DNA from: Nemertoderma westbladi
Taxonomy: Eukaryota; Animalia; Xenacoelomorpha
Assembly: GCA_032718475.1 (NCBI GenBank)
Contig: JAUCBJ010007863.1
Span: 62,001-126,000, forward strand
Length of the DNA stretch: 64,000 nucleotides
Direction of reading: 5' to 3'
In this document: positions 12,083 through 52,460 of the stretch, piece after piece
How the letters are laid out: every line of letters starts with the position of its first letter
Numbering within the stretch: the stretch's first letter is position 1
Position numbers and translations under genes: made by a program
Notes under the pieces: generated by a model
What the model was told of the DNA's origin: nothing
Database searches by the model: none
Seen by the model: only the letters and a program-made list of their open reading frames with translations

Positions 12083-12153
12083 TTAAACCTCCAACAAATT
12101 GCCCGGAAATTTCCCAGATGGCTACAAAGTAAATGGGCATATAAATGTGTAGA

Positions 12154-15100
12154 TGTGAGCGGATTCAATTCCGCCCACCATCCCATAAAGTTGGGAAAGG
12201 GCACCATTTAGCAATATTGGGGATACGAGGTTAATCCCCAATTAACCTCATATCACACACCCAATAAACGGGTACAACAAACCCCAAAGAACCACACAAA
12301 GGAGGTAAGGGGTCAAACCTCTTGGGAGAGGGAAAGTAACAGCAGCGGGGGGCAAGCACCCCCACAGAGGTGAGAGGCGAGAAGTGGGATAACAGCCAAT
12401 GAGGACAGGGGGGAGAGTATCCACTGGACGAAGGCCGTAGTAGTGTACTAATCATATACATATATATTGTCCTGCTACCGGTCGGTTGTTCAGTTTACTC
12501 AGTCATTGTCATTAGTGCAGTTAGGTGACATTTTCGTACCATCACCGCCGTCACCACCACTACCGGTACAATGTTATTTATCATACTTACATATATATTT
12601 CTTGCTACTATATTATATTTGCGTGAGTCAATAATATCAGAACAACAGCAACAACTAACTATCTTTTCACAACGAGCGGCGATGCGTAACGAGAACAAAC
12701 CGGTCGGGATCCCATGATCCCATCACAGTACTAAAATCAGACAACTGCTAAAGCTGTGACTGCCAGCCACCATCAAAGACTAAAGGATGAGCGAAGCCCG
12801 AAATCTAGAGGGAGAGACGACACCGCCGCGGACCTCGGACGATACGAACGAAACGATCCGCGAGGCCGCGACGCGACGGTATCGACCCGCAACGCCGGAC
12901 TCGCCGGAAAGGAACGATCCGGTAGCCCAAGCGGAGGGCAGCTGTCTACCACAACGGGAGGAGGAGTTGACGCACGACGGCGCTCGTAGTACCGATGTCT
13001 CCAGCCAGCCACAGGCCGAGGGCGATGGATGGCCCACCGGAACGGCGACGGTGGGGCCGCCGGTACGACACCAAACCAGGAGGGGAGGAGGAGAGGTCGG
13101 CAACGAGGACATCGGAACCAGTGACCGGCTCTGACGAGCCTACAACGCAACAAAGAAGCAACTTAAGGAGGCCAGGGAAGGAGTAAAGATAGACCAAGGG
13201 AAGTTGAGTCGGCGACTAGGTGAGTCGAATAAACATTTTACATACCTAGTTCGCTTCGGACAGGGAGAACTAGCCAGTGAGAGAGCGAGGGGGGTCGCCA
13301 ACAAACTATTTGAACTGTGGCGATCCGGGATTATGGAGCCCCAAGTTGTGTACATAGGGCCGTATTTAGTGGATGCTAGGGGAATTAAATTGGTGGGTTG
13401 GGCAGACCCGCACAAGGGCAAATCCGAGATTAACCCCGAGGATTCGGTCTCGTCGGTTAGCAAGGGCCCCAGAAAGCGGGGGAAAGTTAGTAGGACAGAG
13501 AGGCGACAGGAGTCCGTCGCAACCGACAAGTCCGCTACATCCTCCGCAAAAGTAAGAAGGGTGTTAGAAATAGATCTGGCTTGTCAGTTGGATATGGTGG
13601 CGCTAGACCAGAAAGAGTTAGAGAGGCAGTTGGAAGAGGGAGCTGCGTTGCTAGAGAAAGAGAGAGAGTTGGCGAGGGAGTGTAAAGAGAGAGCCGAGAG
13701 GGTGGCCAGGAACTGTAGGGAGCAAGAAGAGAGGGAGAAAGAGGAGCGCAAAGAGCGAGAAGGGTGATGGAGAAAGAGGAGTGCAAAGAGCGAGAAGAGA
13801 GGGAGAAAGAGGAGCGCAAAGAGCGAGAAACGAGAGAAAGAAATGAACGTAGAGAGCGGGTGGCGAGAGAAACAGAGTTAGCAAACAGAGTTTGCGAGAG
13901 GATAGGGAGAGAGAGAGAACGGGAAAGTGTGTGTGAGATGATATGCACGCCCGGCTGAGGGGGCTTATGCAATACCAGGCCAAACAATAGCGCCGACTAG
14001 AACTGGCACAGTTGGGGCTATCAGAGAGTGAGGCTGGCTCGGGTAGTGTTTACGAGGAGCCAGAAGTTATGGAAACCTTTGTTAATACCCCACTTACAGG
14101 GACCAGACGACAGACCCAAGACTGGTGTAACCGTAAGGCGGGGGGGAGGGGGGGGGGGGGGTAATAACAATACAGTAGAAAACGTTAATATTAATAGTAC
14201 CATAGTAGATAACCCTAATCAAACTTTCATTGCAGGAAATAATATTTTGCCCGATAATAGTAATTTAAATCCGAACGATCCTAATTTAAATGTAGAAAAT
14301 AATTCAAATAATCTAGATTCGAATATATAAAATAATTCAAATAATTTAAATTTAAATACGCAAATAATCTAAATAATAATCTTAATTCAAACGAACAAAA
14401 TAAACCCAATTCTAACCAAAATATACAGAATAATTTAAATAATAACCCGAATTCAGCACAGAATAATCCTAATAATTTAAATAATTTAGAAAATAACATT
14501 GATACTGGTGCTAATAATGTAAACGCAACAAATCTAGGTGGCCCGGCAAATGAGAGCCTGGTAGGCCACGCAGCTAATACGCAGGGAGTAGCGGGGTTGA
14601 GTCAACCCGACGGGGGCCTGGTAGGCCACATAGTTAGGCAGGAAGTAGCGGGGTTGAGTCCACCCTACGGGGGCCTGGTAGGCCACGTAGTTAGGCAGGG
14701 TGTAGCGGGGTTGAGTCAACCCGACGGGGGCCTAGTAGGCCACACAGTAGTAGAGGGAGAGGTGAGGGTGAATAGACCCAGTCACAGTAGAGATAGTGCA
14801 TCGACTAGAGAGGGGCGTAGAAGCTAAGTGAGAGATAGTGAAGTGATAGGTGGCGAGTGGGGGCTACAGGAGCCCCACAACGAGGGATTAGCGGCGAGGG
14901 GGGGGGGGGGGTGGGCAGAGAGTACCCCACAGGCGTCAGCGGATAATGGGCGGGGCGAATTAGGTGGACCGCAGCACCCGGCGATGGAGAACAGTAGGGG
15001 AATTACGAATATCCCCAGCGGCGTGCGACTGGGTAGAGAGAGAGAGGTTGGCGTCGCGAGAGGGCGAGCGACGAGACGTCGAGCCCAGTCAGAAGAGGGA

Positions 15101-18100
15101 AGAAGAACAGTGGAGTTTAACCGGGAGGTCGATGATAGATCTCACGAGCAGGGACACTACACTGCAGAAAGAAGAAGAGAAGAGTGTAGAAGAAGTGTCG
15201 TTGCAAGCGACAGGAGAGCGAGGACGGATAGCCAGCCGTCAGTCGTAGAGATGGAGTTGGAGAGTCAGTGGGGTCGAACTCCGGGAGATTGCCGTCGCCC
15301 CGGAGAGACGCGACCTGACAAGGTGTACTATACACCGAGAGAGGGCTATAGGGTGTACCGGTACGAGGACGAGAACAGTAGAGGGGATCGAAGAGAAACT
15401 TCCCGACGGGATATAGCTGCCGGTCGAGGATACGGTAGCCACGGGGAGGACTTCTTGGATTATTCGAGAAGGTTAAACTTTAATCCCGAGCGACACATAC
15501 AGACTGCAGGACATACTGTAGGCCTTACTGCACATACTATAGGCCATGCTGGGAGAGATAATGTAGGCGATAGGGCAGCACGCACGAGGGGATTAAACCC
15601 GGAAGTCGCAGAGTACATACCGGTAGGTAGCCCAGAAGTGGATAGGCCTATACCGGTACCAGCACAACAGTATGACTATAGCACACAGGGACATAACATA
15701 TACCCGGTTAAGGGGGATATTGTGGATAGGCAATATAAACAACCAACAACAAATATATGCAAATACCTGGTTGAGGGGGATTTTGCAGATAGGTGTATGG
15801 GCCCCAATATATTAACATCAACCCCAGTACCAAACATAACACCGGTGGGGGGGGGGGGGGGGGGGGCAGGGTGACATTTCCCCAATACAATATACGCAAT
15901 ATAGACAACCAAGAACAAGAAGGATTCGACAAAGAGAGTGGGGTGGAAGGTAGGACGAGCTAGAGGGGGGAAGATGGTAGGGTGCCTGATGGAGGAGTGG
16001 CCCTTAGGTTGCTGAGTGGTCCAATAGGTTGGACAGAAAAGGGTACGGACGCGCCGACGTGAAGGTGTAGGTAGTTAAAAGAGAAACATACGCACTGAGG
16101 TAAACTGAGGGCGTCACGTGTGGGTATGCAAAGGGGGTATGTACGAATATCGTTGGTTATCAGAAGTGGGATAACCAATTAGAGTATGGAGAGGGAGAAA
16201 CCTGTGGGCATTGAGGACATCAGGCAACCAGAAACGAAGAGGATTAGAGGAAGAGAGTGGGGCGGAAAGTGAGGTGAGCTGGAGGAGGAAGATGTGAGAG
16301 ATGAGAAGGGTACAGGGGATGCGTTGAACTAAGTAGGGCACGGGCGTGATGACGTGTTTGATGCAAGAGCAGGAAGAAGTTAGTGGAGTTAGTTGAGTTA
16401 GTAAGAGTTAGTAGTAGAGTTAGTTCAGTTAGTAGAGAGTTAGTAGAGTTAGTAAGAGTTAGTAGTTGTTCACATAATTAACATACCCACTTTGCCGGCA
16501 CTCAGAGCGTCACGTGCAGGCGAGGAGACGTAAAGGGGATAATATGTAAAGGTAGGTGTAGAGGAAACAAGATGTAAAGGTAGGTGTAGAGGAGATAAGA
16601 TGTAGATAGAGTAGAGGAAGTAGATGTAGAGATAGATGTAGAGGAAGTAGATAGAGGCGGGAGAGATGCGTGATGAAGGGGGTGGCCCATAAGTTGTTGA
16701 GTGGTCCAGTGGGTTGGACGAAAAGGGTACGGATGTGCTGGGGGGTGTGCGTGAGGGTGTGGGTGGTTAAACGTTACATTCTGCCTAGGTTAACATGTGC
16801 TCCTAGGGTAACTTAGCATACGCACCTTTGACGGCACTGAGGGTGTCACGTACGGGATTGAGGGGGATCATGTATACATTACCATAGTTGAAAGGGTGCC
16901 ATGTAGTAGAGTAGTAGAGGCGGGTACATAGGGTGCCAGGTAGTAGAGTAGTAGAGGCGGGCACATAGGGTGCCAGGTAGTAGAGTAGTAGGGGCGGGCA
17001 CATAGGGTGTCAGGTAGTAGAGTAGTAGAGACGGGCACATAGGGTGCCAGGTAGTAGAGTAGTAGAGAGGGCACAAAGTGAGGGGGGTATGTATGCATGC
17101 TATTGCCAAGGAGTAAGGAAAGTGCGAAATGTGTGGGCGCTGAGGTCTTCAAGTATCGAGCAGAAAGAGGGTAGGTAGTACCGTTAGTTAGGGAGTAAGA
17201 GGGTATGTGGTACCGTTAGCTAGGGGAGTTAGTAAGAGTAGTAAGAGGGTACATAGTACCGTTAGCTAGAGGAGTTAGTAAGAGTACTAAGAGGGTACGT
17301 AGTACCGTTAGCTAGAGGAGTTAGTAAGAGTAGTAGGAGGGTACGTAGTACCGTTAGCTAGAGGAGTTAGTAAGAGTAGTAAGAGGGTACGTAGTACCGT
17401 TAGCTAGAGGAGTTAGTAAGAGTTAGGGAGGTAGAGAGGTAGTAAGAGGTAGAGAGTCAGTAGAGTTAGGGAGTTAGTAGAATTAGTAGAGCTAGTAGAG
17501 GTAGAGAGTTAGTAGAGTTAGTAGAAGTAGAGAGTTAGTAGAGCTAGTGGAGTTAGTAGAGTTAGCAGTAAGAGAGTAGAGAGCACAACACATCGTAGAA
17601 ATAGTAGCTAGAAAGGTAGATAGGATAGCACAGAACAGATCAACACAGAACAGAAATAAAACAAAATTGAAATAAAATTAAGAATATCAGGATCACCTCC
17701 GAACTATAGAAGAGCCTTCAAGGTGGCCTTTGAAGGTCTGGTAGACCACCTGGGGCTGAAGGGCGAGTCAGTGTCATACAACAGCCGGCATCTAGTAGAC
17801 AGGGAGGTGGATACACATATCACGTGGGAGAAGTTGAATTGAAGGGAAGCGACTGGAAGAAGTCGCCAGGCGAGAATGGGGGAGAGAGAGAATGAAGCGC
17901 GTTATGTAGACGAGCATATAATATAATATATATAATAATAATAATTATAATCTTATAATAATTATAATAATTCGTATATATATTATACAGTATGTACCGT
18001 AGTCAAGCACAACATTTTTCCAATTAGCTACTGGAACTGGGGACTAATTGACTAGGGCGACAGGACGGGACTTAGACGGCGCCCACTAACATGAGCGCAC

Positions 18101-19313
18101 ATGCGTGGGACCCGATAAGTGTGTGGTCATTAAACAAAAGGGCGGAGTTCAGGATTTATTTATTGTGAAAGCTCGTATCCTGCGGGATAAGAATCGTGCA
18201 GATAGGCACTACCGGGATACGAGTAGGAGGGGCACTTGATGGGACCACAGGCGTGAAAATGAGAGGAGTATGAGAGGAGTATGTGAGGAATATGAGAAGA
18301 GTATGAGAATATAGAACGCAGGGGAGTTAGATAGTGGTTGAGTATAGAACGCGTGGAGAGAAGGCAAGTGCAATTCAAGTGTGGGGGGGAGGAGTAAGAG
18401 GTAGAGTGAGGGACAAGGAAGGTCCAAGAATTAGAGTGGAGGAGAGGTTAGAGTCAGTTAGAGCAGAATTAGAGTGGAGAGAGTAGTGGGGAGGTAAAAA
18501 TTGTGTGAGAGAAATCCACAATTGTCTCAACACGGGACGTCAGATGTCTTGGTGTAAAATAGATGAAGTTGCACCAAGAGAGGGTAGCAATATCATACCC
18601 ATAGGGAGCGGCCTGGAAGGCTGGCTCCGAGAAAAAGAGAACTCCACCTCACACCCGATAGTAGATCGGGATCCAGCGGAATTTAAGCGCACTCATTGGT
18701 GATGCTATCTTCTCACCGGGAAGATAGCATGGGGGGGAGTGTGAGCGGATTCAATTCCGCCCACCACCCCATAAAGTTGGGAAAGGGCACCTTTTAGCAA
18801 TATTGGGGATACGAGGTTAATCCCCAATTAACCTCGTATCACACACCCAATAAACGGGGACAACAAACCCCAAAGAGCCACACAAAGGAGGTCAGAGGTC
18901 AAACCTCTTGGGAGAGGGAAAGTAACAGCAGCGGGGGGCAAGCACCCCCACAGAGGTGAGAGGCGAGAAGTGGGATAACAGCCAATGAGGGCAGGGGGGA
19001 GAGTATCCACTGGATGAAGGCCGTAGTTGTGTACTAATCATATACATATATATTGTCCTGCTACCGGTCGGTTGTTCAGTTTACTCAGTCATTGTCATTA
19101 GTGCAGTTAGGTGACATTTTCGTACCGTCACCGCCGTCACCACCACTACCGGTACAACGTTATTTATCATACTTACATATATATTTTTTGCTACTATATT
19201 ATATTTGCGTGAGTCAATAATATCAGAACAACAGCAACAACTAACTATCTTTTCACAACGAGTGGCGACGCGTAACGAGAACAAACCGGTTGGGATCCCC
19301 TGATCCCGTCACA
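12154..19313 (+). mobile_element. Non-autonomous BEL-derived LTR element E1 (internally deleted)
   Basis: 574-bp TG..CA LTRs at 12154-12727 and 18740-19313 (roughly 15-20 mismatches by eye), 5-bp TSD GTAGA, PPT GGGGGGGAG. The 5' gag is homologous to E2/E3 but stops near 15930. No PR or RT. Confidence 0.93.
16895..17420 (+). repeat. 37-bp and 46-bp minisatellites within E1
   Basis: catagggtgccaggtagtagagtagtagaggcgggca (about 4-5 copies) and gtaccgttagctagaggagttagtaagagtagtaagagggtacgta (about 5 copies). Confidence 0.8.
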
Positions 19314-32043: not shown

Positions 32044-32260
32044 CTGGTATATAGGAATGTACCAGCATCGTAAGCAGCTGATGTGCAGCGCCCCCTGACG
32101 GTAGGACGTTAAATGTAAGTCTGTAACCGCTACCGAATTTGTGTTTGAGGAACAAAGAGGACCCGACAGTAACTAGGCGACCGCGGTCCAAAACTGCAAT
32201 CCGGTCTCCAATAGCGTCGGCCTCCTCCATGTAGTGGGTCGAGAGAAGGATAGTTCGACC
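32044..32260 (-). CDS. ABCA: ABCA transporter exon: NBD1 H-loop to start of R1
   Basis: Encodes [49 protein letters not shown]...VHSYIP. Acceptor ttttactttatag, donor CCAG|GTGTGT. Joins RYKQ|GRT in frame. Confidence 0.95.
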
Positions 32261-33655: not shown

Positions 33656-35097
33656 TGTGACGGGATCCGAGAATCCCGGTTTATCCGGTGTTGGTTATGT
33701 ACGCATCCCCGCCGTGTGAGTGAAAAGGAGTTTGTTATTCTTCCAATGTTATTGATAATATAAAATGTGGTATACAATAGCAGCAAGTAGATATAATAAC
33801 AGATAGCAATTGCAGAAACGGTAATATACTAGTAATATGGTGACGGCGGTGACGGTCTTAAACTGTCACCGTACTGCCATGACTGTACTGAGATAACTGG
33901 ATAATAAACTAAACATCAACCGGTAATATACTCTAGGTTGGCCGTATTACTCAGCTGATGCCCTGCTGTCCCCCCATTGGCTAATAACTCACTTCTCACC
34001 CTCCCATCTCCCTGGGAGTGCTTACCCCTGCTGTCACTCTCTCCCTCCCGGAGGTGTAACCTCTGACCCCCGCTGTGTGTGTGTTCCCTTGGGGCCTGTT
34101 GTCCCCGTTTATTGCTTAAAGCCAACTTTGTGTGGGGTGGTTAGCGGAATTGAATACGCTAACACTCCCCCCCATGATATCTTCCCGGTGAGAAGATAGC
34201 ATCCACCTTTAGTGCGCTACAATTCCGCTGGATCCCGATCTACTATCAGGTGTGGGGTGGAATTATTTTCTTCGGAGCCGGCTTTCCAGGCCGCTCCCTA
34301 TGGGTATGATATCGCTACCCCGCCTTGGTACAACTTTACCTATCTTGCACCAAGACATCTGGCGTCCCGTGTAGGGCCGATTGTGGACTCTCACACAATT
34401 TTTGTTTCCCCAACACTCTCACCACTCTAACTCCGCTCTAACTCCGCTCTTACTCTCTCCCCACACCTGAATCGCACTCGCCTGCACTCTCTCTCGCCAG
34501 CAGCTCCTCTCCATACTCCTCTCTACTCTCTACCACTCCCTAAGGCCCTAATCTCTAATGCTACCCCTGTGCTATCATACTATCTAACTCTCTAACTTAC
34601 TAACTACCTACTATCTTCTACCTACTATCTAACTCTCTTACTAACTCTACTAGCTCTAACTAGAACTCGAACTAAAAAACTCTCTAACTCTCTACTAACT
34701 CTAACTCTACTAACTCTCTGACTCCTCTAAGTCTACTCCGCCTACTACTTTCTACGTGGCACTTTCGGTGCCCAAGACCACGCTACTACTACTTCCGTCT
34801 ACATGGCGCTTGCGGTGCCCACAACCCCACTCTACTACTCGTGGCATGTCAATATGCCACACTCCCTATACCGCCGCCGACTTCTAACCTAACCCGGTAC
34901 TACGTACCCTCTACTCCCGTGGTATGTCTATACCACACTCCCTATACCCGCCGCCTTCTAACCTAACTAACTTCTACCTAACTTTCTAACTAACTTTCTG
35001 ACTACTACTTACTGTCTTCTATTAACTACTATCTAACAATCTGACTACTAACTTCTTACTATCTTCTACTAACTTTCTTATTTAATTATTTTATTAT

Positions 35098-37547
35098 TTA
35101 AATAATTATTTGTACGTGGGAAGGGCGTCTCGCCCTCATTCCCACCCCCCTCAGTCCAAAACATTGGACGACTAAACTCTTAAGGTGCCCCTTCTTCCAG
35201 TAGGCACTCTCCCACTGCCCTCCTATACGTCCTCTTACTCTTCGCCACACTTTCTTCGCCAATTCCAACTGACCAGGAATTGGTTCTCCCTCTTCCGCCA
35301 CCCTAAAATCGGGTCTCTCCGCCGCCTTCTTAACTTCCTCGTCTCTTGGCATCAAAATGCCACCTCCCACCTTGTTGTCTCCCGGCGGCAGAATGAAAAG
35401 AAAGTGAAAGAACAGACAAAACAGAACGTACAATAGTAGTCCTATCCCTTTCAATCCTGTCTTCCTTCTCGACTTCCCCCTTGTCGGTATGCCTCTCAAC
35501 CGGACCGGCGTCTCTTCCGGACACTCCTCTGGACACTCCTCTGGACACTCCTCCAGACTATTGTCCTTCTGACACTCCACCGGACACTCCTCCGGTTTGT
35601 CCTCCGGACATCTCTCCGTCCACTCCTCTCCGTCCCCATACCGATACTTGCTGGGAAATCCATTCTCCCCCGCCAACTCTCCTACTGGCACCTCCCTGCC
35701 TGGCTTATCTACTATCTCCGGCTTCTTCTCTTCGTCCTCTGAGTCTAAGGTGCCTGGTAGCATGCACCCTGATGTCTCCGTCACCCTGGATGGAATATTG
35801 GTTTTAACTGGGCCGCTAAGCATCCATCCGAACGGCGTGAGGATCGCCGTTGGATCCCGCTGCCTGTCTTCGCCGAAGACCGTCTGTGTTCTCTCGTGGG
35901 CCGTCGGGCAGTCCATTCCTACTATAATGGATACCTTCCTAACGTCCACCTTTGGTATTGAGAAATCGATACCGTCCAGGAATCTATATTGTTCGACCTC
36001 AATGTTGGTTGGTTGCCTGGCGTTGATATTTATCGATTCTATCACCTGGATGGGGTCGATGGTCGCCCCATAGTCGCATCCTGGTGCAATCGCTGATATC
36101 CTGCACCACCCCGTCCTCATCTCCAGGACCTCATCCTTACTTGAGACGGTAGTTACCGCCATTCTATTTGGCCTCGTCTTTATCCCTATCTCTTCGGCCA
36201 CCCAGTTCTCCACCAGCGTGAAGGCTGCTCCGCTGTCGACCAGCATTAATGTCGTTACTGATCGACCGCCCTCTCCTGATATCTTCACAGGTACTACCCC
36301 GAGTAGTACTTTTCTCTTCTTTCTTGCCACTGTCGTGCTTGTAGCCATTGTTTGGCCTCCAGTCTCGAACTCTTTAACTGCTGTTTCTCTACACTCTCTG
36401 GATCTGTGTCCTTCTACCACACATCGATGACAGTCCGTTTGCGTCTGTGTAGGCTACACGGTCTTCTTTGGGCAACGCTTGCCAGTATTTACAACTCATG
36501 GTCTTATGGGTTCCATCCCGATGTAATTGGCATTCAAATCCTGGATTGTAGCATTCCCTGTATAGTCCCTCACGTATTGTGCGTAGGTTTACATCTACCG
36601 ATTTAGTGTTTTGGTTATCTAGACTCGGCCTACTGGGTATGTTGGGATTGTGTTTATTTGTGGTGTTATTTTCTTTCTGTCCCTGTCACGGTGTGGCCCT
36701 ACTCCCAGCTAACTGTGGGCTTGTAGCCCTCTGTGTGGCCGCGTGTGGTAGTGACTGTCTTACTCTCGGGAATGGATCTGCAGGATTGTGTTCGGGTTTA
36801 GGCCTGTTGTACTCGATCTTTGGTGCCTTCCCCAAACTATCCTCACTATAGACTGGGTCTGTGATCAACTCGGCTTCGTAGTTGAGGAAGTTTGACATTT
36901 CCTCTAGGCCCGGTTCCGCACCCTTCTTCTCTCAAGTGGAGAAAGCGATTTTCCTCCACTTACTGCGCAGCCAGATCGGCAGTGCCTGCGCTATCGTGGT
37001 GATGTTATTAGATGCGTTGAGTTCTTACGGCGCGTCTAGCGTCTTCAACACGATTAACGCCTTCTCGACCTTGTTCGCAAAGGTCGTTATGCTAACGGGG
37101 TTGTCCTGTAGGCCACCCGATGTTATACCTCTCAGGGTTTGCCGGATGATCTTGGCTGGGTGTCCGTATTCCCTGTCTAGCGCCCGCCATGCTGTCGTGA
37201 AGCCACCCTCGATGCCCTGGTACTGCCTCACGATGTCGTATGCTGGGCCTCCTGTATACACTTGTAGATATTTTAGGCACTCCACCTGCGTCAAGTTCTT
37301 ACTTAGTATCTCGTTGCTGTACATGCGCCGAAATTGCAGGTATTCTTCCGGCCTACTCCCATCGAATTTAAACGGTTCCACGGGTTGTAACTCGATCCTG
37401 GTTTTAAATGAATCGATTAACGTGGCCATTCCCATCTCTTGCGCTTCCAATGGGTTCGATGGATGCTGTATAGATTCTCCCGTTGGGTGCGGTCCGCCCG
37501 TCCTATCTGTTGATTTTATTTGAGTTGGATACATCATTGGGGGTAAC
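35098..37547 (-). pseudogene. E2 capsid, Zn knuckle and aspartic protease region (frameshifted)
   Basis: PVEPFKFDGSRPEEYLQF...; TLMLVDSGAAFTLV (protease DSG); SIIVGMD...AILTPFGWMLSG (BEL-type). Confidence 0.85.
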
Positions 37548-40500
37548 CAATGAACCAATGAACCAATGGACCATGTGTTTATTCGACAAAATCGAGGAAG
37601 GTGTACTTTTATATGGCGAAACACATGACATAATTGTAGTAGGTGACTTGAACTCCAGGACGGGGACGGAGCTAGATTATATCGACAGCGACGATTTCAC
37701 TGGAAATAGTTTCTTTGACAATTTACTACCTCCAGATTATATTTATGACTCTGACGATATATGGGGAGGTGTGCAGAAAATTAGAAACAACTGTGATAAA
37801 GTGGTTAACCAATATGGGAGAAGACTATTGCAATTGTGCCGGTCGACTGGTCTTAAGATAATGAATGGACGGGTGGGTGAAGACGCTACCCAAGGACAAT
37901 GCACATACTACTCAGTATCAGGAGCAACAGGATTGGGTAAATCAAATATTGACCTTATGCTAGTTGATACTAAATTATTATGCAACACTGTGGCTTTCAA
38001 GGTTCATGTTGACAGTATGATACCTACAAAACACTGCATGGTAAGCGCAACATTAGCCTGGAAAGCTACAATAAGAGAATGTAATGCCACCCAGGGAAAT
38101 AGTGACAAAAAACATACAAATGACTATAGTACACGGTTCTCATGGAAACAGACAAAAAGTAGTCAGTTCGTGGATCTACTTGGTTCTGACGAATTCAAAG
38201 CCAGCGCAAACAGTCTCTTAGACGACCTCGGAAGTGGCAGTTACACGCAGGAATCTGTCGAAGAAGCAGCCAAGAAGTTAACAGACTGTATACAGACTGT
38301 AGCGGGACAGTTATTTAAAGTGGGGACAAATAACACATGTAAGAGTAGGGATAGTACTAACGACAATAATGAGTGCCTGTGGTTTAATGACGAATGCTTA
38401 GAAAAGCGAACGGCATTTAGGAATGCACTCAATAAGTGGAAGTCTGATCGGACAGTGGCGTCAAAAATCGTTGTATCCCACACCCGTAGTATGTATTGTA
38501 AGACACTGAGACGAGCACGGGCAAATTACAGACGTGACCAGTCACGAAATTTGGAACAGTTAAGTTTGGAGGTAAATGAGACAAGGAAATTTTGGACTCT
38601 ACTGAAAAATTCAACCGGTAACAAAAATAAATCACAACAATCTAAATTATCTCTTGATGACTTCGAAGAACATTTTAGGAACCTATGTTCTGGAACACCA
38701 GAATTTTCGGACATGGGAGTAGATCCACATGTTGACATAGACGTTAATAACAGTAAAAATTTAATGGAAAAGGAACTGTCTCAGCCCTTTACGGAGGATG
38801 AAGTAAATATTGCTATTGACAAACTTAAAAGACACAAAGCCCCGGGAATGGATATGCTACTAAATGAGTTCTTCATTGAAGGTAAAGCAGCCCTTACTCC
38901 ACTAATAACCCCTTTGTTCAATGCTGTGCTCTATTCTGGTAACTTCCCAAGAGCCTGGGCTGCGGCTCTGGTAACGCCAATCTATAAGAATAAAGGTAGT
39001 AAGGATGACGCGGGAAACTACAGAGGGATATCTTTGTTAAGTTGCTTAGGAAAACTATTCACCTCAATTCTAAACTACAGAATTTCCTGGTGGGCAGAAG
39101 GTTTTCAGGTGTTAAACGACTCCCAGGCTGCTTTTCGTGCAGGCTACAGAACAACAGACCATTTGTTTGTGTTAAGTGGGTTGATAAATTATCTCACGTC
39201 TCATGGTAATAAACTGTATTGCGGATTTATAGATTTTCAAAAGGCATTTGACCGTGTGGAACGCGATGCTCTATGGGTGAAACTCAATTGCCTTGGATTT
39301 TCAGGAAAGATATTTCAGGTTATTAAGAGTCTCTATGAAAGTGTGAAGTCGCGAGTGAAATGGAATGGGGGCATATCTGAGGCGTATGACTGCTTTTTGG
39401 GCGTATTGCAAGGGGAATGTTTGTCCCCGGTACTTTTTATTCTTTTTCTCAATGATCTGGAGGCTGAGCTGAGACTTGGCGGTGTGAATGGTATCACCCT
39501 ATCCCACTTGCAGCTATTTCTATTACTTTACGCGGACGATCTGGTACTAATAGCCACCACAGGATCGGACTTACAGAGATCTTTTGATATCTTAGGGGCT
39601 TATTCTGAGTATTGGGGCCTACGGGTTAATCTGGACAAAACAAATGTCGTAGTTTTTCGGAGAGGGGGTTCATTGGCGAGAGGAGACAAATGGTTTTATA
39701 AAGGGGAGAGTGTTGGTGTTGTCTCACAATACAATTATCTGGGAATCACCTTGTCATTTACAGGTAAATTTGCATGCGCCCAAAGAATACTGGCGCAAAA
39801 GGCTGAAAAGGGTTTATTCTCGCTCTATAGGTATTTTATTAAATTCCCAAATTTGTCATTTGCATTGAAGTACAAGCTATTTTCGATATTGATTGCGCCA
39901 ATTTTAAGTTACGGTGCCGATGTTTGGGGATTTCATTCTGCTCCGGCAATTGAGCGTGTTCATTTAGCTTTTTTGAAACGCCTACTTGGAGTAAAACGGA
40001 GCACTCCTGATTTTGCCGTCTACGGGGAAACTGGGGCTGTGCCGCTTTCAGTTTCACGAAAGCTGACAATTGTAAAATTTTGGGTAAGAACTTTGACTCT
40101 CCCGGAGACGAGACTGACTAAACGTATGTATCAGGTACTTTATGAGGATGCACTGCAGGGGTCAGCGACAAACTGGGTTTCAATGGTAAGGGATGTATTA
40201 AATGGCCTGGGCCAAAGTTGGGCATGGGAGTCTCAAAATGTTGGGGATGCCAAATTATTCTTAAATAACGTTAGGGGAGTTTTAATGGATCAATTCATAC
40301 AAGGGTGGTGGGCTGATATATCAAACTCTTCCAAAGGACAATATTACGTTAAAGATAAATTCGGAACAGAAGAATATCTACATTTATTAAAGGACAATAA
40401 TGGCTTACGTCAAACCCTCGCAAGGTTTCGGTGCTCGTCCCACAACTTAGAGATTGAAGTTGGTCGTTGGGATCACAGAGCTGTACAGGATCGGGTGTGT

Positions 40501-40787
40501 AAAATTTGTAACTTAGGGGAAGTAGAACATGAGTACCACTTTCTGCTTGTGTGTCCTGCTTACTCAAATATAAGGCAAACTTATTTACGGCAATATTACA
40601 CTATAAACCCATCGGTATATAAGTTTAAGGCATTACTACGGCGCAAACCAGATTTAAAAAACTTAGCTTTATATCTGAGTAAAGCATTTGCCGTAAGGGA
40701 GCGATTGCTAGCAAGATTATAGTTAATGTGCAATTCAACAATAACATATACGTATGCTTGTTGTCGATTAATAATAATAATAATAAA
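37548..40787 (+). mobile_element. 5'-truncated LINE (RTEX-like) inserted antisense in the E2 gag
   Basis: 6-bp TSD GGTAAC (37542-37547 and 40788-40793), (TAA)n tail; the E2 gag resumes across the insertion. Confidence 0.9.
37566..40722 (+). CDS. LINE ORF2: partial AP endonuclease, reverse transcriptase, C-terminal CCHC finger
   Basis: VVGDLNSRTG, KAPGMD, YRGISLLSCLGKLF, DFQKAFD, GVLQGECLSP, LLYADD, RFRCSSHNLEIEVGRW..CKIC..HFLLVC. Uninterrupted, but the N-terminus is missing. Confidence 0.92.
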
Positions 40788-43700
40788 GGTAACGGCCCCC
40801 TCCATATTTTGACCTGTTCTCGTCCAGGGGGTTCGATGTTCTCACTGCTGTTCGAGTATATTGTTGATATTGTAATGGGGGAATGTCACCCTGCCCCCCC
40901 CCCCCCCCCCCCCACCGGTATGTTTGGTACTGTGGTTGATGTTAATATATTGGGGCCCATACATCTATCTGCAATAACTCTCCCCTCTCCTGGATATATG
41001 TAGTGTCCTTGCATATTATAGACATGCTGCTGTACCGATATAGGCCTACCCACTTCTTGCCTACCTACCGGTATGTACTCTGCGACTTCCGGGTTTAATC
41101 CCGTCGTTCGCGCTACCCTATCGCCCACACTATCTCTCCCAGCATGGCCTATAATAGTATGTGCAGTAAGGCCTACAGTATGCCCTGCAGTCTGCATGTG
41201 CCCTTCCAAACCGAAGTTGAATTCTCTCGAATCTCGAATCTCCCCGCGACTACCGTACTCTCAATCGGCAGCTATATCCCATCGGGAAGTTTCTTTTCGA
41301 TCCCCTCTTCTATTCTCGTCCTCATATTGGTACGTCCTGTACCCCTCTCCTGGCGTGCGGTGCGTTTCTCAGGGGCGATGGCAATCTCCCGAAGTTCGAC
41401 CCCACTGACTGACTAACTCTGTCTCTACTGCCGACGGCTCGCTATCCGTCCTCGCTCTCCGGTTGCTCCTAGCAACGACTCTTCTATTATTATCTTCACT
41501 TCTTCTCTCTTCGACGTCTCGGTTAAACTCTACTAATCTTCTTCTATCTTCGACCTCTTTGTTAAACTCTACTAATCTTCTTCTCTCTTCTGACAGGGCT
41601 CGACTTCTCGTCGCTCGCCCACTCTCGGCGCTAACATCTGACTCTACTCTGTCCAGCTGGACCCTCCTGCGGATACTCGCCATCCCCCTACTATTCTCCG
41701 TCGTCGGGTGCTGCGGTTCACCTAACTTGCCCCGCGCATTATCCGCCGACGCCTGTGGGACATTCTCTGCCCCCCCCCCCTCGTGGTGGGGCGCCCGTAG
41801 CCCCCCCCCCCCGCCACTTCTAACTTCACTATCTCTCACTATACTTCTGCGTCCCTCTTGTCGGACATTCTCTACACCCTTCTCTCGCCACTAATCTTCC
41901 GTGGTGGGGCGCCCGTAGCCCCCCCCCCCCCCCCCCACCCGCTACTTCTAACTTCACTACCTCTTACTTCACTTCTACGTCCCTCTTGTGGGGCGTTCTC
42001 TGCCCCCCCTCTCTCGCCACTGATCTTTTATGGTGGGGCGCCCATAGCCCACCCCCCCCCCCCCACTCGCCACATCTAACTTCACTACCTCTTACTTCAC
42101 TTCTACACCACCCTCTAGTCGACGCACTGTCTCTACTGCGGCTGGGTCTATTCACACCCGCCTCTCTCTCTACTACTGTGTGGCCTACCAGGCCCACCTC
42201 GGGTTGACTCAACCCCGTCGCTCCCTGCCTAACTACGTGGCCTACCAGGCCCCCGTTGGGGTCTCTCGCCCCCGCTACTCCCTGCGCACTAAATGCGTTG
42301 CCTTGCAGGCTACCGTTGGCCGGACTACCTGTGTCTCCTACATTAGTATTAATAGCCCCGTTGTCAATATTATTTGTTAAATCAATTAAATCCTCCAAAT
42401 CAATTAAATTATTTTGCACACCTAAATCAGAAACGGGATTATTATTTAAATTATTTTGTGTATTTAGATTTAAATTATTTGGATTATTTTGAATATTTGA
42501 ATTAATTTTATTATTTGAATTTAAATTTAAATTACCGGGTAAAATATTTCCTGTAATAAAGGGATTAGGGTTATCTACTACGGTACTATTAATATTAACG
42601 TTTTCTAATCTATTGTTATTACCCCCCCCCCCCCCCCGCCCGTACGGTTACACCAGTCTTGGGTCTGTCGTCCGGTCCCTAAGTGGGGTATTAGCAAACG
42701 TTTCTCTCTCTCCATCCTCCCGCAGACTTTGCTCGGCCAACTCTGTCTCTCTCGCAACCCTCTCAAGCCACCTCGCCTCGCGCTCTTTACACTCGCTCGC
42801 CCTTCTCACCTCACGCTCTTTACGCTGACACGCCAGATTTATTTCTAACACCCTTCTTTCTTTCGTGGAGGATGTAGCAGGCTTATCGGTTGCGACGGAC
42901 TCCCGTCGCCCCTCCGTCCTTCTAACTTTCCCCCGCTTTCCAGGGTTCTCGCTGACTGATGAGACCGAATCCTCGGAGTTAACCTCGGATTCGCCCTCGT
43001 GCGGTCCCACCCAACCCAATAACTTAACTCCCCTGGCATCAACTAAGTATGGCCCTACGTACACTACGCTAGGTTCCATACCCCTACATTCCCATAGTTC
43101 AAACAGTTCGCTGGCAACCCCTCTCGCTCTCCCATCAGCTAGTTCTTCCTCCCCAAAGCGCACTAAGCAATCAAAATGTTTATTCGACTCACCTAGCCGC
43201 TTCTCTAGCTTCACCTGATCTAGTTCCCCTCCCTCCTTTGCTTCCTTTATCTGCCTTCTCGTCGCGTTGTAGGCCCGCCTGGTCGCTAACTCCGACGTCC
43301 TTGTCGCCGACATCCTCTCTATCCCTCCGGGTCCGGCGTCGTACCGGCGGCCCCACCGTCACCGTTCCGCTGGGCCGTCCGTCGCCCTCGGCCTGTGGCT
43401 GGCCGGCGAAATCGGCACGTCGACCGCCGTCGTGTGTCGACTTGTCTCTCCTCTCTCTCGACTTGTCTCTCCCTCCTCTCGACTCGTCTCTTCCTCCCTG
43501 TGGTAGACGGCCGCCCTCCGCCTGGGCCGCCGGACCGTCTCTCGTCGACGAATCCGGCCTCGTGGGTTGATACCGTCTCGCCGTGGCCTGGCGGATCGTT
43601 AGGTTGTCGTCCGGGGTCCGCGGCGGTGTCCTCTCTCCTTCTTGACTCATCTTTGTCTCTGGTGGCTGGCAGTCACAGTTTCTCAGGCAGTTCTCAAGAG

Positions 43701-44267
43701 TTTAAGACTGTGACGGGATCCGAGAATCCCAGTTTATCCGGTGTTGTTTATGTACGCGTCCCCGCCGTGTGATTGAAAAGGAGTTTGTTGTTCTTCCAAT
43801 GTTATTGATAATATAAAATGTGGTATACAATAGCAGCAAGTAGATATAATAACAGATAGCAATTGCAGAAACGGTAATATACTAGTAATATGGTGACGGC
43901 GGTGACGGTCTTAAACTGTCACCGTACTGCCATGACTGTACTGAGATAACTGGATAATAAACTAAACATCAACCGGTAATATACTCTAGGTTGGCCGTAT
44001 TACTCAGCTGATGCCCTGCTGTCCCCCCATTGGCTAATAACTCACTTCTCACCCTCCCATCTCCCTGGGAGTGCTTCCCCCCGCTGCTGTCACTCTCTCC
44101 CTCCCGGAGGTGTAACCTCTGACCCCCGCTGTGTGTGTGTTCCCTTGGGGCCTGTTGTCCCCGTTTATTGGGGTGACACGAGGTTGATTGGTAATCAACC
44201 TCGTGCTCCCAATATTGCTTAAAGCCAACTTTGTGTGGGGTGGTTAGCGGAATTGAATACGCTAACA

Positions 44268-47175: not shown

Positions 47176-47251
47176 CTAAAGGTAAATAATAAAGAAATTA
47201 AAAAATAAACATAACAATAATTAAATAACTGAAAAATGGCGGCGAGGGACC

Positions 47252-50200
47252 ATCTCGTTTATATGCCTAACTATCTCGTTTATATGCCTAACTATCTCGT
47301 TTATATGCCTAACTATCTCGTTTATATGCCTAAATAACTAGTTTATATGCCTAACTAACTAGTTTATATGCCTAATTAACTCGTTTATATACCTAACTAA
47401 CTCGTTTATATGCCTAACTCGCTTACATGCGTAACCAACTCGTTTATATGCCTAACTAACTCGTTTATAGGCCTAACTAACTAGTTTATATGCGTAACTA
47501 ACTCGTTTATATGTTTAACTAACTAGTTTATATGCCTAACTCGCTTACATGCCTAACTAACTCGTTTATATGCCTAAATAACTAGTTTATATGCCTAACA
47601 AACTAGTTTATATGCCTAATTAACTCGTTTATATACCTAACTAACTCGTTTATATGCCTAACTAACTAGTTTATATGCTTAACTAACTAGTTTATATGCC
47701 TAATTAACTCGTTTATATGCCTAACTCGCTTACATGCCTAACTAACTCGTTTATATGCATAAATAACTAGTTTATATGCCTAACTAACTAGTTTATATGC
47801 CTAACTAACTAGTTTATATGCCTAACTCGCTTACATGCCTAACTAACTCGTTTATATGCTTAACTAACTAGTTTATATGCCTAATTAACTCGTTTATATG
47901 CCTAACTAACTAGTTTATATGCTTAACTAACTAGTTTATATGCCTAATTAACTCGTTTATATGCCTAACTCGCTTACATGCCTAACTAACTCGTTTATAT
48001 GCCTAAATAACTAGTTTATATGCCTAACTAACTAGTTTATATGCCTAATTAACTCGTTTATATACCTAACTAACTCGTTTATATGCTTAACTAACTAGTT
48101 TATATGCCTAAATAACTAGTTTATATGCCTAACTAACTCGTTTATATGCTTAGCTAACTAGTTTATATGCCTAAATAACTAGTTTATATGCCTAACTAAC
48201 TAGTTTATATGCCTAATTAACTCGTTTATATACCTAACCAACTCGTTTATATGCCTAACTCGCTTACATGCGTAACCAACTCGTTTATATGCCTAACTAA
48301 CTCGTTTATATGCCTAACTAACTCGTTTATATGCTTAACTAACTAGTTTATATGCCTAAATAACTAGTTTATATGCCTAACTAACTAGTTTATATGCCTA
48401 ATTAACTCGTTTATATACCTAACTAACTCGTTTATATGCCTAACTCGCTTACATGCGTAACCAACTCGTTTATATGCCTAAATAACTCGTTTATATGCCT
48501 AACTAACTCGTTTATAGGCCTAACTAACTAGTTTATATGCCTAACTAACTCGTTTATATGCCTAACTCGCTTACATGCCTAACTAACTCGTTTATATGCC
48601 TAACTAACTAGTTTATATGCCTAATTAACTCGTTTATATACCTAACTAACTCGTTTATATACCTAACTAACTCGTTTATATGCCTAACTAACTCGTTTAT
48701 ATGCCCAACTAACTAGTTTATATGCCTAATTAACTCGTTCATATGCCTAACTAACTCGTTTATAGGCCTAAATAACTAGTTTATATGCCTAACTAACTAG
48801 TTTATATGCCTAATTAACTCGTTTATATACCTAACTAACTCGTTTATATGCCTAACTAACTAGTTTATATGCCTAACTCGCTTACATGCCTAACTAACTC
48901 GTTTATATGCTTAACTAACTAGTTTATATGCCTAATTAACTCGTTTATATGCCTAACTTGCTTACATGCCTAACTAACACGTTTATATGCCTAACTAATT
49001 AGTTTATATGCCTAATTAACTCGTTTATATACCTAACTAACTCGTTTATATGCCTAACTAACTAGTTTATATGCCTAACTCGCTTACATGCCTAACTAAC
49101 TCGTTTATATGCCTAACTAACTAGTTTATATGCCTAATTAACTCGTTTATATACCTAACTAACTCGTTTATATGCCTAACTAACTAGTTTATATGCCTAA
49201 CTCGCTTACATGCCTAACTAACTCGTTTATATGCTTAACTAACTAGTTTATATGCCTAATTAACTCGTTTATATGCCTAACTTGCTTACATGCCTAACTA
49301 ACACGTTTATATGCCTAACTAATTAGTTTATATGCCTAATTAACTCGTTTATATACCTAACTAACTCGTTTATATGCCTAACTAACTAGTTTATATGCCT
49401 AACTAACTAGTTTATATGCCTAACTAACTCGTTTATATGCCTAACTCGCTTACATGCCTAACTAACTCGTTTATATGCCTAACTAACTAGTTTATATGCC
49501 TAATTAACTCGTTTATATACCTAACTAACTCGTTTATATGCCTAACTAACTAGTTTATATGCCTAACTCGCTTACATGCCTAACTAACTCGTTTATATGC
49601 TTAACTAACTTGTTTATATGCCTAATTAACTCGTTTATATGCCTAACTCGCTTACATGCCTAACTAACTCGTTTATATGCCTAAATAACTAGTTTATATG
49701 CCTAACTAACTAGTTTATATGCCTAAATAACTAGTTTATATGCCTAACTAACTAGTTTATATGCCTAATTAACTCGTTTATATACCTAACTAACTCGCTT
49801 ACATGCCTAACTAACTCGTTTATATGCCTAACTAACTAGTTTATATGCCTAATTAACTTGTTTATATGCCTAACTAACTCGTTTATATGCCTAACTAACT
49901 CGTTTATATGCCTAACTAACTAGTTTATATGCCTAACTAACTCGTTTATATGCCTAACTCGCTTACATGCCTAACTAACTCGTTTATATGCCTAACTAAC
50001 TAGTTTATATGCCTAATTAACTCGTTTATATGCCTAACTAACTCGTTTATATGCCTAACTAACTAGTTTATATGCCTAACTCGCTTACATGCCTAACTAA
50101 CTCGTTTATATGCTTAACTAACTTGTTTATATGCCTAATTAACTCGTTTATATGCCTAACTCGCTTACATGCCTAACTAACTCGTTTATATGCCTAAATA

Positions 50201-51571
50201 ACTAGTTTATATGCCTAACTAACTAGTTTATATGCCTAAATAACTCGTTTATATGCCTAACTAACTAGTTTATATGCCTAATTAACTCGTTTATATACCT
50301 AACTAACTCGCTTACATGCCTAACTAACTCGTTTATATGCCTAACTAACTAGTTTATATGCCTAACTAACTAGTTTATATGCTACCTAACTCGCTTACAT
50401 GCCTAACTAACTCGTTTATATGCCTAACTAACTAGTTTATATGCCTAATTAACTCGTTTATATACCTAACTAACTCGCTTACATGCCTAACTAACTAGTT
50501 TATATGCCTAACTAACTAGTTTATATGCCTAACTAACTAGTTTATATGCCTAATTAACTCGTTTATATACCTAACTCGCTTACATGCGTAACCAACTCGT
50601 TTATATGCCTAACTAACTCGTTTATAGGCCTAACTAACTAGTTTATATGCCTAACTAACTGTTTATATGCTAATAACTCGTTTATATGCCTAACTAACTC
50701 GTTTATAGGCCTAACTAACTAGTTTATATGCGTACCTAACTCGCTTACATGCCTAACTAACTCGTTTATATGCTTAACTAACTTGTTTATATGCCTAATT
50801 AACTCGTTTATATGCCTAACTCGCTTACATGCCTAACTAACTCGTTTATATGCCTAAATAACTAGTTTATATGCCTAACTAACAGTTTATATGCCTAAAT
50901 AACTAGTTTATATGCCTAACTAACTAGTTTATATGCCTAATTAACTCGTTTATATACCTAACTAACTCGCTTACATGCCTAACTAACTCGTTTATATGCC
51001 TAAATAACTAGTTTATATACCTAACTAACTAGTTAATATGCGTACCTAACTCGCTTACATGCCTAACTAACTCGTTTATATGCCTAACTAACTAGTTTAT
51101 ATGCCTAATTAACTCGTTTATATACCTAACTAACTCGCTTACATGCCTAACTAACTAGTTTATATGCCTAACTAACTAGTTTATATGCCTAACTAACTAG
51201 TTTATATGCCTAATTAACTCGTTTATATACCTAACTCGCTTACATGCGTAACCAACTCGTTTATATGCCTAACTAACTCGTTTATAGGCCTAACTAACTA
51301 GTTTATATGCGTACCTAACTCGCTTACATGCCTAACTAACTCGTTTATATGCCTAACTAACTAGTTTATATGCCTAATTAACTCGTTTATATACCTAACT
51401 AACTCGCTTACATGCCTAACTAACTCGTTTATATGCCTAAATAACTAGTTTATATGCCTAACTAACTAGTTTATATGCCTAATTAACTCGTTTATATACC
51501 TAACTAACTCGCTTACATGCCTAACTAACTCGTTTATATGCCTAAATAACTAGTTTATATGCCTAACTAAC
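47252..51571. repeat. 21/17-bp mixed tandem array
   Basis: Units tttatatgcctaactaact(c/a)g and cttacatgcctaact..cg with higher-order blocks. Interrupted at 51572 by an LTR. Confidence 0.95.
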
Positions 51572-52460
51572 TGTTAGCTTATTCAATCCCGCTAACACCC
51601 CATAAAGTTATAAGCCGATAAGCAATATTGGGAGCCACGAGATTGGATAATTAACCAACTCGTGCCATCCCAATAAGAGTGGGAAGGAAGCACACAAAGA
51701 GGGTCAGGGGCCAAACCCCTAACCCAGAGAGAATAGGTGGAGTGAACGGGAACACTCCAAAGGGCGCCAACAAGGGTATCAACCAATCAGAGGGGGGAAA
51801 GGCATCGATTAGGTAGAGTAACAAGGCCAACCGTGCAATATAGCCACTTGGCAGTAATAATACCAATTCAGTTATCTCAGTGCAATACCGGTGCTAGTTT
51901 AGGTTATTACATAGTTTTAGATAGGGAAGGACCGGGACTTTAGTTACCGTATCCCGCCTTCCATATACGACAATACTATATCTATATCTATATCCACATA
52001 TCATATTATATACGACAAACAACATCAGAACTCATTCACTCTTTATACACGGCGGGGACGCGTGAACTAAAACCGGATAAACCGGGATCCCTCTTGGATC
52101 CCGTCACAGTAACTAAACCAGCTGCCGCCCTAGATAAACTCAATAACCACTAGCCACCGAAATCTGCAGAAGAGAGATGAGTCGGTCAGGTGACACGACA
52201 CCGACGCGGACCCCGGACGAAGAGCTAACGATCCGCGAGGCCGCAACCAGGCGATACAGGCCCACAACGCCGGACCCATCGGTAACGGGTCATCCGGCAG
52301 TTCAGGACGAGGGGGGCCTGGAACCCGAGGTCGAACCGAGAGAAAGAGAGAGCGAGACGGAGGGAGACGGAGACGAGTCGACACGGACGGGGGTCGACGC
52401 ACCGGTGTCGCCGGCCAGCCACAGGCCGAGGGCGACGAGCGGCCCGCCGAAACGGCGACG

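What the first reader, a model, noticed from the sequence alone, without database searches (positions are those of the whole stretch)
12154..52117. Three BEL-derived LTR elements replace the tRNA PBS with a sequence complementary to their own LTR hairpin loop: candidate self-priming system
Seen: none of E1, E2 or E3 has a TGG-type PBS. The bases directly after the 5' LTR terminal CA are the reverse complement of a segment at a homologous position inside the LTR. E1: GTACTAAAAT (12728-12737) vs ATTTTCGTAC (12530-12539), 9/10. E2 (minus strand): GTCTTAAACT (43708-43699) vs AGTTTAAGAC (43917-43908), 10/10. E3: GTAACTAAA (52109-52117) vs TTTAGTTAC (51939-51947), 9/9. The three sequences differ from one another but pairing is kept, i.e. 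compensatory covariation. Each anti-PBS lies in a hairpin loop (GGTGAC/GTCACC in E2 and the E1 3' LTR; CGGGAC/GT-at-CCCG in E3). Pairing stops exactly at the LTR edge with the polarity needed to prime minus-strand strong-stop DNA, and a GGGAT/ATCCC hairpin is conserved just inside U5. Known: self-priming is described for S. pombe Tf1 and the Tf1/sushi Gypsy group, where the primer is the first 11 nt of the RNA; BEL/Pao elements normally use tRNA. Inference: a tRNA-independent priming mechanism in a BEL lineage, using an internal loop (about 40-70 nt after a putative TCAGT initiator) or the RNA 3' end.
Basis: partly seen in the sequence, partly recalled or inferred. Interest (0 to 1): 0.88.

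Follow-up and report, generated by a model that had tools for sequence, protein, structure and literature searches.

The report
Self-priming signature in BEL/Pao retrotransposons
Three BEL/Pao jumping-gene copies that lack reverse transcriptase have, where a host tRNA normally lands to start DNA copying, a short sequence that pairs with their own terminal repeat, and distant intact relatives show the same pairing with different letters, so this group likely cuts a primer out of its own RNA.

Summary
E1, E2 and E3 are non-autonomous BEL/Pao elements with no TGG PBS. The 9-10 nt after the LTR pair with a site inside the LTR (9/10, 10/10, 9/9). At E1's one mismatch, 45-73% of laid contig depth reads the pairing letter. 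In 12 of 13 autonomous BEL families from metagenome contigs with both LTR ends defined, the PBS pairs over 10-15 nt with its own LTR; swapped PBSs reach 10 nt in 9 of 240 tests. Eight pair only across the junction of a canonical LTR intron; four are contiguous, like E1-E3. The predicted primer end is mostly AC^C. It often lies opposite a one-base bulge in a second stem formed with U5, and upstream of the poly(A) signal. Best reading: the 5' leader is likely cut there and the fragment primes at the PBS, like Tf1 but with an internal primer. Against: the primer:PBS helix is not the predicted equilibrium fold, there are no RNA data, tRNA fragments were not tested, and no autonomous partner was found. 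The scan noted BEL self-priming before on other DNA. Ten literature searches listed no paper on it.

The parts
12154..19313 (+). E1, non-autonomous BEL/Pao-derived LTR element, 7.16 kb; LTRs 12154-12727 and 18740-19313; 5-bp TSD; PPT just before 18740; no Gag core, protease or RT match
12492..12492 (+). putative TSS (A of TCAGT, about 30 nt after a TATA-like run); predicted 5' fragment 48 nt
   Evidence: sequence; inference
12530..12539 (+). E1 anti-PBS (predicted primer 3' end), same letters in both LTRs
12676..12695 (+). E1 U5 partner of anti-PBS plus 3' flank, one-base bulge opposite the predicted cut
12706..12721 (+). E1 U5 inverted repeat (GGGAT/ATCCC hairpin)
12728..12737 (+). E1 PBS, 9/10 complementary; position 12732 varies among family copies
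33656..44267 (-). E2, non-autonomous element with broken Gag (DUF1759) and protease, a nested RT-coding insert (ORF 37474-40722, + strand), inserted in a 23/46-bp satellite; 3' LTR lacks 50 nt in total
43908..43917 (-). E2 anti-PBS; predicted 5' fragment 44 nt from putative TSS at 43951
43746..43766 (-). E2 U5 partner (bulged stem)
43715..43730 (-). E2 U5 inverted repeat
43699..43708 (-). E2 PBS, 10/10 complementary
51572..64000 (+). E3, 5' LTR 51572-52108; Gag-protease ORF 60486-63599; nested Gypsy element 54259-59708; runs off the window; no BEL RT/RNase H/integrase match inside the window
51870..51938 (+). E3 R segment upstream of the anti-PBS, predicted to pair with the leader downstream of the PBS (-39.9 kcal/mol, p 0.002); not significant in E1 and E2
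51939..51947 (+). E3 anti-PBS; predicted 5' fragment 78 nt from putative TSS at 51870
52051..52071 (+). E3 U5 partner (bulged stem)
52084..52102 (+). E3 U5 inverted repeat
52109..52117 (+). E3 PBS, 9/9 complementary

Best explanation
E1-E3 are BEL/Pao-derived elements without reverse transcriptase whose PBS is complementary to a segment of their own LTR, and they likely prime minus-strand DNA with a piece of their own 5' leader, predicted to be cut at a conserved AC^C site. Shown in the sequence: the complementarity, its covariation across copies and families, a second partner for the same segment in U5, and in relatives an intron whose exon-exon junction recreates the segment. Inferred steps: (1) transcription starts at the TCAGT/CAGTT initiator 44-78 nt upstream of the cut. 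(2) In the 5' leader the segment and its 3' flank fold with U5 into a long stem with a one-base bulge opposite AC^C; at the RNA 3' end U5 would be missing and the short local hairpin would form, confining the cut to the 5' copy. (3) An RNase, by analogy with Tf1 the RNase H of a partner element's RT supplied in trans, would cut there. (4) The freed 3' end would move from its imperfect U5 partner to the PBS, probably helped by the Gag zinc knuckles, and be extended through U5. (5) Plus-strand synthesis would copy the primer end back into the PBS each cycle, which would explain Watson-Crick-only covariation. E1-E3 would be the intronless form of a system in which many relatives assemble the same segment by splicing.
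For:: matches of 9, 10 and 9 of 10, beyond shuffles; at E1's single mismatch (12732), 45%, 56% and 73% of contig depth in 3 runs (2 studies) reads the letter that pairs; 12 of 13 autonomous families with LTR ends fixed by the direct repeat pair 10-15 nt with their own LTR (8 across a GT..polypyrimidine-AG junction, 4 contiguous), against 9 of 240 swapped pairs, 7 of them in the LTRs of three sibling families; primer end AC in 18 of 21, next base C in 16 of 21, TGG near the LTR end in 1 of 21; one-base bulge at the predicted cut in 12 of 21 (largest of 68 cells, next 9) and in E1, E2 and E3; anti-PBS+flank:U5 duplex p 0.005 in each of E1-E3 and p<=0.055 in 7 of 9 relatives; canonical poly(A) signal downstream of the cut in 7 of 9; TATA about 140 nt upstream of the donor in 2 of 7 spliced families, pointing to an internal primer; local hairpin versus U5 stem depends on whether U5 is present.
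Against: The anti-PBS:PBS helix has pair probability about 0 in the uncut leader and costs 5-9 kcal/mol when forced. After an in-silico cut the fragment's end still prefers U5 or the local hairpin. The duplex is weak (-3.7, -10.4, -7.3 kcal/mol). E1-E3 have no canonical poly(A) signal after the cut (AATAAT, AATAAC, none), and their AATAAA lies 262-277 nt upstream (AATAAG in E3), so their R/U5 border is uncertain. The outer helix is significant only in E3 (p 0.002; E1 0.65, E2 0.33). One family (L086) shows no signature, and 9 of 21 lack the strict bulge. Nine of the 21 families were found by a scan that used the complementarity itself. The bulge motif may partly reflect shared ancestry. One search showed no variant rows at the anti-PBS, but 8 rows were hidden and contigs give no linkage between the two sites. 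No autonomous partner of E1-E3 was found (best proteins about 30% identical; long branch).
Confidence: 0.6

Rival explanations
1. Self-priming by the 3' copy: the genomic RNA (or its dimer partner) ends, or is cut, at AC^C in the 3' LTR, and that end folds back or acts in trans on the PBS.
For: Same complementarity. In the 3' copy without U5 the segment is displayed in a hairpin loop. E1 and E2 have AATAAA 262-277 nt upstream of the site, which folding could in principle bring near.
Against: In 7 of 9 relatives the poly(A) signal is downstream of the site. The conserved bulged stem needs U5, which a 3' copy would lack. In intron-bearing families a spliced 3' copy would erase the intron from progeny LTRs, yet 12 of 21 keep it.
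Confidence: 0.14
2. The pairing is a regulatory or packaging/dimerisation switch, and priming uses a host tRNA fragment or other small RNA at or near this site.
For: The segment has three alternative partners (local hairpin, U5, PBS), as a switch would. Half-tRNA primers exist in Ty1/copia (PMC6317226, passages). No host tRNA set could be searched.
Against: The PBS differs among E1-E3 and among 21 families, so many different fragments would be needed, each also present in the LTR or at a splice junction. The pairing always begins 0-4 nt from the LTR end (one uncertain 9) and ends mostly in AC. The PBS helix is Watson-Crick only while the U5 stem has wobbles and bulges (although Watson-Crick runs were what was searched for).
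Confidence: 0.15
3. The primer is an LTR-derived short RNA made without a particle-associated cut, for example by host nuclease processing of the R:U5 stem or by premature termination, and supplied in trans, including from solo LTRs.
For: The long bulged stem could be a host nuclease substrate. LTR ends are far more abundant than the PBS side in contigs (depth falls about 27-fold across the LTR end in X1). E1-E3 lack RNase H.
Against: The PBS tracks its own family's LTR rather than a shared primer. No RNA data.
Confidence: 0.08
4. Chance or local duplication without function.
For: The matches are only 9-10 nt in A/T-rich sequence, and the three elements are related.
Against: the match is recreated across splice junctions in 8 families.
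Confidence: 0.03

Closest known systems
Tf1/Tf2 of Schizosaccharomyces pombe and the Tf1/sushi group (Ty3/gypsy), also predicted for the Tcn1 (gypsy) and TAR (copia) lineages
   Same: PBS complementary to the element's own LTR RNA instead of a tRNA; about 10-11 nt; accessory helices around it; a cut is needed to make the 3'-OH (PMC7175516, 10.1101/2022.12.06.519325 and PMC6317226, passages seen).
   Different: Different superfamily (BEL/Pao). The primer segment is predicted internal (44-78 nt after the putative TSS in E1-E3), not the first 11 nt. The accessory stem pairs the primer's own flank with U5 rather than two PBS-adjacent sequences with the LTR as in the 'pretzel'. In relatives the segment is split by an intron.
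Belpaoviridae / BEL-Pao as described by ICTV (PMC8742986, whole text read)
   Same: LTRs, PPT, DUF1759 Gag with zinc knuckles, aspartic protease; closest proteins are full BEL polyproteins with Peptidase_A17 and DUF5641.
   Different: The profile gives an 18-nt PBS for tRNA-Arg or tRNA-Gly; none is present here or in 20 of 21 relatives. E1-E3 lack RT, RNase H and integrase.
Half-tRNA priming in Ty1/copia (Osser, Bryco, Bianca; PMC6317226, passages)
   Same: PBS without TGG; primer 3' end made by cleavage.
   Different: There the PBS is constant within a lineage and host-derived; here it varies with each family's LTR.
C. elegans Cer7 (BEL type), reported to carry its own tRNA-like primer (recalled; one search did not confirm)
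   Same: Element-encoded primer in a BEL element.
   Different: No tRNA-like sequence here; the primer lies in the LTR.

Membership tests
BEL/Pao (Belpaoviridae) | TG...CA LTRs, 5-bp TSD, PPT | tested here: met
   (E1 and E2; E3 5' LTR only)
BEL/Pao (Belpaoviridae) | BEL-type Gag (DUF1759) and protease | tested here: met
   for E2 and E3; E1 is linked by DNA similarity only
BEL/Pao (Belpaoviridae) | RT, RNase H, integrase (autonomy; RT-based placement) | tested here: not met
   tblastn of 6 BEL polyproteins finds only Gag/protease in the window; E3 continues beyond the window
BEL/Pao (Belpaoviridae) | 18-nt PBS for the 3' end of tRNA-Arg or tRNA-Gly | tested here: not met
   no TGG in the first 8 post-LTR bases of E1-E3; feature from PMC8742986
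Tf1/sushi self-primers | PBS complementary to own LTR RNA | tested here: met
Tf1/sushi self-primers | primer is the first 11 nt of the mRNA | tested here: inconclusive
   promoter motifs put the segment's end 44-78 nt after the putative TSS; TSS not mapped (no RNA run)
Tf1/sushi self-primers | three-duplex 'pretzel' with two PBS-adjacent helices | tested here: not met
   predicted accessory helices have another topology; prediction only
Tf1/sushi self-primers | Ty3/gypsy chromovirus ancestry | tested here: not met
   proteins are BEL type
Tf1/sushi self-primers | RNase H cleavage makes the primer | not testable with these tools
   needs biochemistry
Half-tRNA-primed elements | PBS matches an internal host tRNA fragment | not testable with these tools
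   no host genome, no tRNA in the window
Splice-junction BEL primers (earlier scan notes; relatives here) | canonical LTR intron whose junction recreates the anti-PBS | tested here: not met
   E1 none; E2 12 nt and E3 10 nt only with weak sites (6 of 15 pyrimidines, non-consensus donors)

The most novel reading that the evidence does not exclude
A large branch of BEL/Pao elements, from E1-E3 to at least 20 autonomous families in other animals, has dropped tRNA priming. It uses an internal self-primer marked by a bulged R:U5 stem, cut at AC^C and handed over to the PBS. In many families the primer exists only after host splicing of an LTR intron, which would make the spliceosome a licensing step for reverse transcription. 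Intronless forms such as E1-E3 would have arisen more than once and would restrict the cut to the 5' copy by an RNA switch.
Probability: 0.4. Interest if true: 0.9.

Novelty: new variant of a known kind. Interest (0 to 1): 0.75.

Why it matters
The reference description of BEL/Pao says tRNA-primed and calls replication poorly understood. If right, self-priming is not confined to Tf1/sushi and a few plant lineages but is common in a third LTR superfamily, with a different geometry: an internal primer, a bulged stem marking the cut, and splicing-assembled primers in relatives. It gives exact, testable positions for a primer end, would explain BEL elements annotated without a PBS, and bears on how PBS-based priming evolved.

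Tried and rejected
No whole genome is held, so no genome-wide copy survey or host tRNA test was possible. The search for homologous proteins gave nothing at E<=1e-20. Viral-contig scans found no relatives. No RNA holder was listed, which is no evidence on expression. Read laying showed no molecule ends because only contigs were laid. A splice-junction primer in E1-E3 was tested and not supported. A cut by the spliceosome at C|GT was considered and rejected: poor donor, and the end would be mispaired. No Rfam family, so no known ribozyme or tRNA, reached threshold; ARAGORN found none. The degenerate LTR-like piece at 24241 has no recognisable end or PBS. The Gag-protease tree cannot place E2/E3 (long branch; L084 and L086 left out). 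Earlier-note look-ups by sequence, place and 'bulge' words returned nothing. Primary Tf1 papers were not held. Literature searches listed no paper on BEL self-priming; subscription journals, Repbase notes and bioRxiv supplements were not searchable, so prior description is not excluded.

Full report
1. What is in the window. Self-comparison gives three related LTR elements. E1 (12154-19313, +) has 574-nt LTRs with 18 mismatches and TSD GTAGA. E2 (44267-33656, minus) has LTRs of 559 and 509 nt, 6 mismatches and TSD ATTTT; it sits in a satellite and holds a nested RT-coding insert. E3 starts at 51572, holds a nested Gypsy element and runs off the window. E1 and E2 have the same PPT. E2 and E3 encode DUF1759 Gag and an aspartic protease. 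The best of 2848 protein hits are about 25-31% identical, and all 10 long ones scanned carry Peptidase_A17 and DUF5641, i.e. they are BEL/Pao polyproteins. The only named cluster of 10 looked up is from sea urchins, too distant to say anything about the host. tblastn with 6 of these proteins finds no BEL RT, RNase H or integrase in the window. The elements are therefore non-autonomous as far as the window shows. Contigs of organism A show a high-copy, diverse family.

2. The observation. The post-LTR 10-mer matches one LTR site at 9, 10 and 9 positions, and the next-best sites at 7. Shuffles reach this in 3.1%, 0 of 2000 and 1.9%. The PBSs differ at 6 of 10 positions. Laying three DNA runs (two studies) on E1 12500-12790 tested a prediction: at the one mismatched PBS position, 45%, 56% and 73% of contig depth reads the letter that pairs with the LTR. 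No variant row was listed at the anti-PBS, but 8 rows were hidden and contigs give no linkage. Rows at neighbouring PBS positions show further subfamilies whose LTR partner I could not see.

3. Relatives. An alignment of five BEL polyproteins retrieved 80 of 476 confirmed metagenome loci and 7 genome-collection loci, in 63 families at 80% identity. In 13 families both LTR ends could be fixed from the direct repeat; L058 ends in TA and the L071 and L086 boundaries are uncertain. Earlier scan notes gave the lead to test splice junctions. Eight families pair 10-15 nt only across the junction of a GT..polypyrimidine-AG intron in the LTR (L013 11, L030 11, L031 13, L048 15, L049 12, L058 11, L060 11, L076 10). 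Four pair contiguously (L024 11, L062 10, L071 12, L084 11). L086 gives 9, not above background. With PBSs swapped between the 16 elements, 9 of 240 tests reach 10, 7 of them in the LTRs of the sibling families L030, L031 and L049; own PBSs reach 10 in 13 of 16 (E3 9; E1 5 because this test counts unbroken runs). A scan of 55 loci that used the complementarity to find the LTR end added 9 families. These are selected positives, and many loci lacked the needed upstream DNA. Among the 21 positive families the pairing ends in AC in 18 and is followed by C in 16; the offset is 0 in 2, 2-4 in 18 and 9 in 1; TGG occurs near the LTR end only in L076. Spliced and contiguous types are interleaved on an RT-RNase H tree (5 changes, 2 forced, not more clustered than shuffles). 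E2 and E3 fall on a long branch, and their partner was not found. E1-E3 themselves are contiguous: no canonical intron improves the match.

4. Folding. From the putative initiator to the leader, all three are predicted to form a long stem in which the anti-PBS and its 3' flank pair with a U5 segment, followed by the GGGAT/ATCCC hairpin. This duplex beats shuffles in E1-E3 (p 0.005 each, the floor of 200 shuffles) and reaches p<=0.055 in 7 of 9 relatives. The U5 strand has a one-base bulge opposite the predicted primer end in E1, E2, E3 and 12 of 21 families; this is the largest of 68 shift-by-bulge cells, the next being 9. Shared ancestry may inflate it. Against the model, the anti-PBS:PBS helix is not the equilibrium fold before or after an in-silico cut, so a chaperoned exchange has to be assumed. 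A helix between upstream R and the post-PBS leader is significant only in E3.

5. Where the primer lies in the RNA. In E1-E3 a TATA-like run lies about 30 nt before a conserved CAGTT(A/T)(T/A)CTCAG, which would give 5' fragments of 48, 44 and 78 nt. This is inference from motifs. In relatives, AATAAA or ATTAAA lies 13-97 nt after the predicted cut in 7 of 9, and a TATA lies about 140 nt before the donor in 2 of 7 spliced families; in L030 the only TATA match is inside the intron. This favours an internal segment of R in the 5' copy over either the cap end or the 3' end. E1-E3 lack a canonical signal at that place, so for them the point is weaker.

6. Mechanism. I commit (0.6) to cleavage of the 5' leader at AC^C, hand-over of the fragment's end from U5 to the PBS, and extension by an RT supplied in trans. 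Some form of element-derived primer has about 0.8. Copying of the primer into the PBS in each cycle, standard for LTR elements (own knowledge), would account for the tight covariation. Rivals are priming by the 3' copy (0.14), a structural switch with tRNA-fragment priming (0.15), a trans-acting short LTR RNA (0.08) and chance (0.03).

7. Known systems. Tf1 uses its first 11 bases, cut by RNase H between bases 11 and 12 (PMC7175516, passages), within a three-duplex 'pretzel' (10.1101/2022.12.06.519325, passages). Self-priming is also predicted for the Tcn1 and TAR lineages (PMC6317226, passages). The ICTV profile describes BEL/Pao as primed by tRNA-Arg or tRNA-Gly (PMC8742986, whole text). Word searches in PMC3118150 and PMC554778 found no PBS or tRNA mention; passages of PMC3601003 and PMC8220671 added nothing on BEL priming. 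E1-E3 appear to work like Tf1 but are not members of the Tf1/sushi group. Ten library searches (listings only) showed no paper on BEL self-priming, with the coverage limits noted. Seven earlier notes of this scan report the idea in other genomes. They are leads, not support; the splice-junction claim was retested here on different DNA.

8. Verdict. The feature is real and belongs to a clade-wide pattern. It is a new variant of a known kind, with the chemistry untested. Interest 0.75.

Noticed in passing
window 54259-59708 (minus strand): Gypsy element nested in E3, LTRs 201 nt and 98.5% identical, intact pol ORF. Its LTR is followed directly by TGGCGCAG, a normal TGG-type PBS (tRNA-Ser-like by recall): an in-window contrast to E1-E3.
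   Followed up: partly
window about 8900-10690, 12080-12153, 19319-21000: An older BEL-like gag element interrupted by a DNA transposon with terminal inverted repeats (about 10690-12080) and by E1; no LTRs recognised.
   Followed up: partly
window 15900-18740, 34165-35100, 63600-64000: Where pol would be, E1-E3 carry long purine/T-rich tandem-repeat tracts almost free of C; about 300 nt before the PPT are 84% identical between E1 and E2, a likely cis signal.
   Followed up: no
window 32250-33655, 44268-46756, 47254-51572: E2 sits inside a 23/46-bp satellite and E3 starts at the edge of a 21-bp satellite; 30-bp and 67-bp arrays lie nearby.
   Followed up: no
window 24241 to about 23830 (minus strand): Degenerate LTR-like fragment related to the E family, with no recognisable 3' end.
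   Followed up: partly
window 12222-12256 and homologues: A conserved U3 hairpin followed by CCCAATAAA; E2's 3' LTR has lost the hairpin but kept AATAAA.
   Followed up: no
L081-L087: Seven contigs of bacterial MAGs in the genome collection encode BEL polyproteins, likely animal DNA binned in by mistake.
   Followed up: no
L087 5148-5402: Two tRNA-like genes (Thr, Ser) called by ARAGORN inside the span of a BEL match.
   Followed up: no
L013, L030, L031, L048, L049, L058, L060, L076 and L021, L055, L056, L077: Canonical introns of 76-305 nt inside BEL LTRs whose exon-exon junction is the PBS complement. Spliced and contiguous types are interleaved on an RT tree (5 changes, 2 forced by starred branches).
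   Followed up: yes
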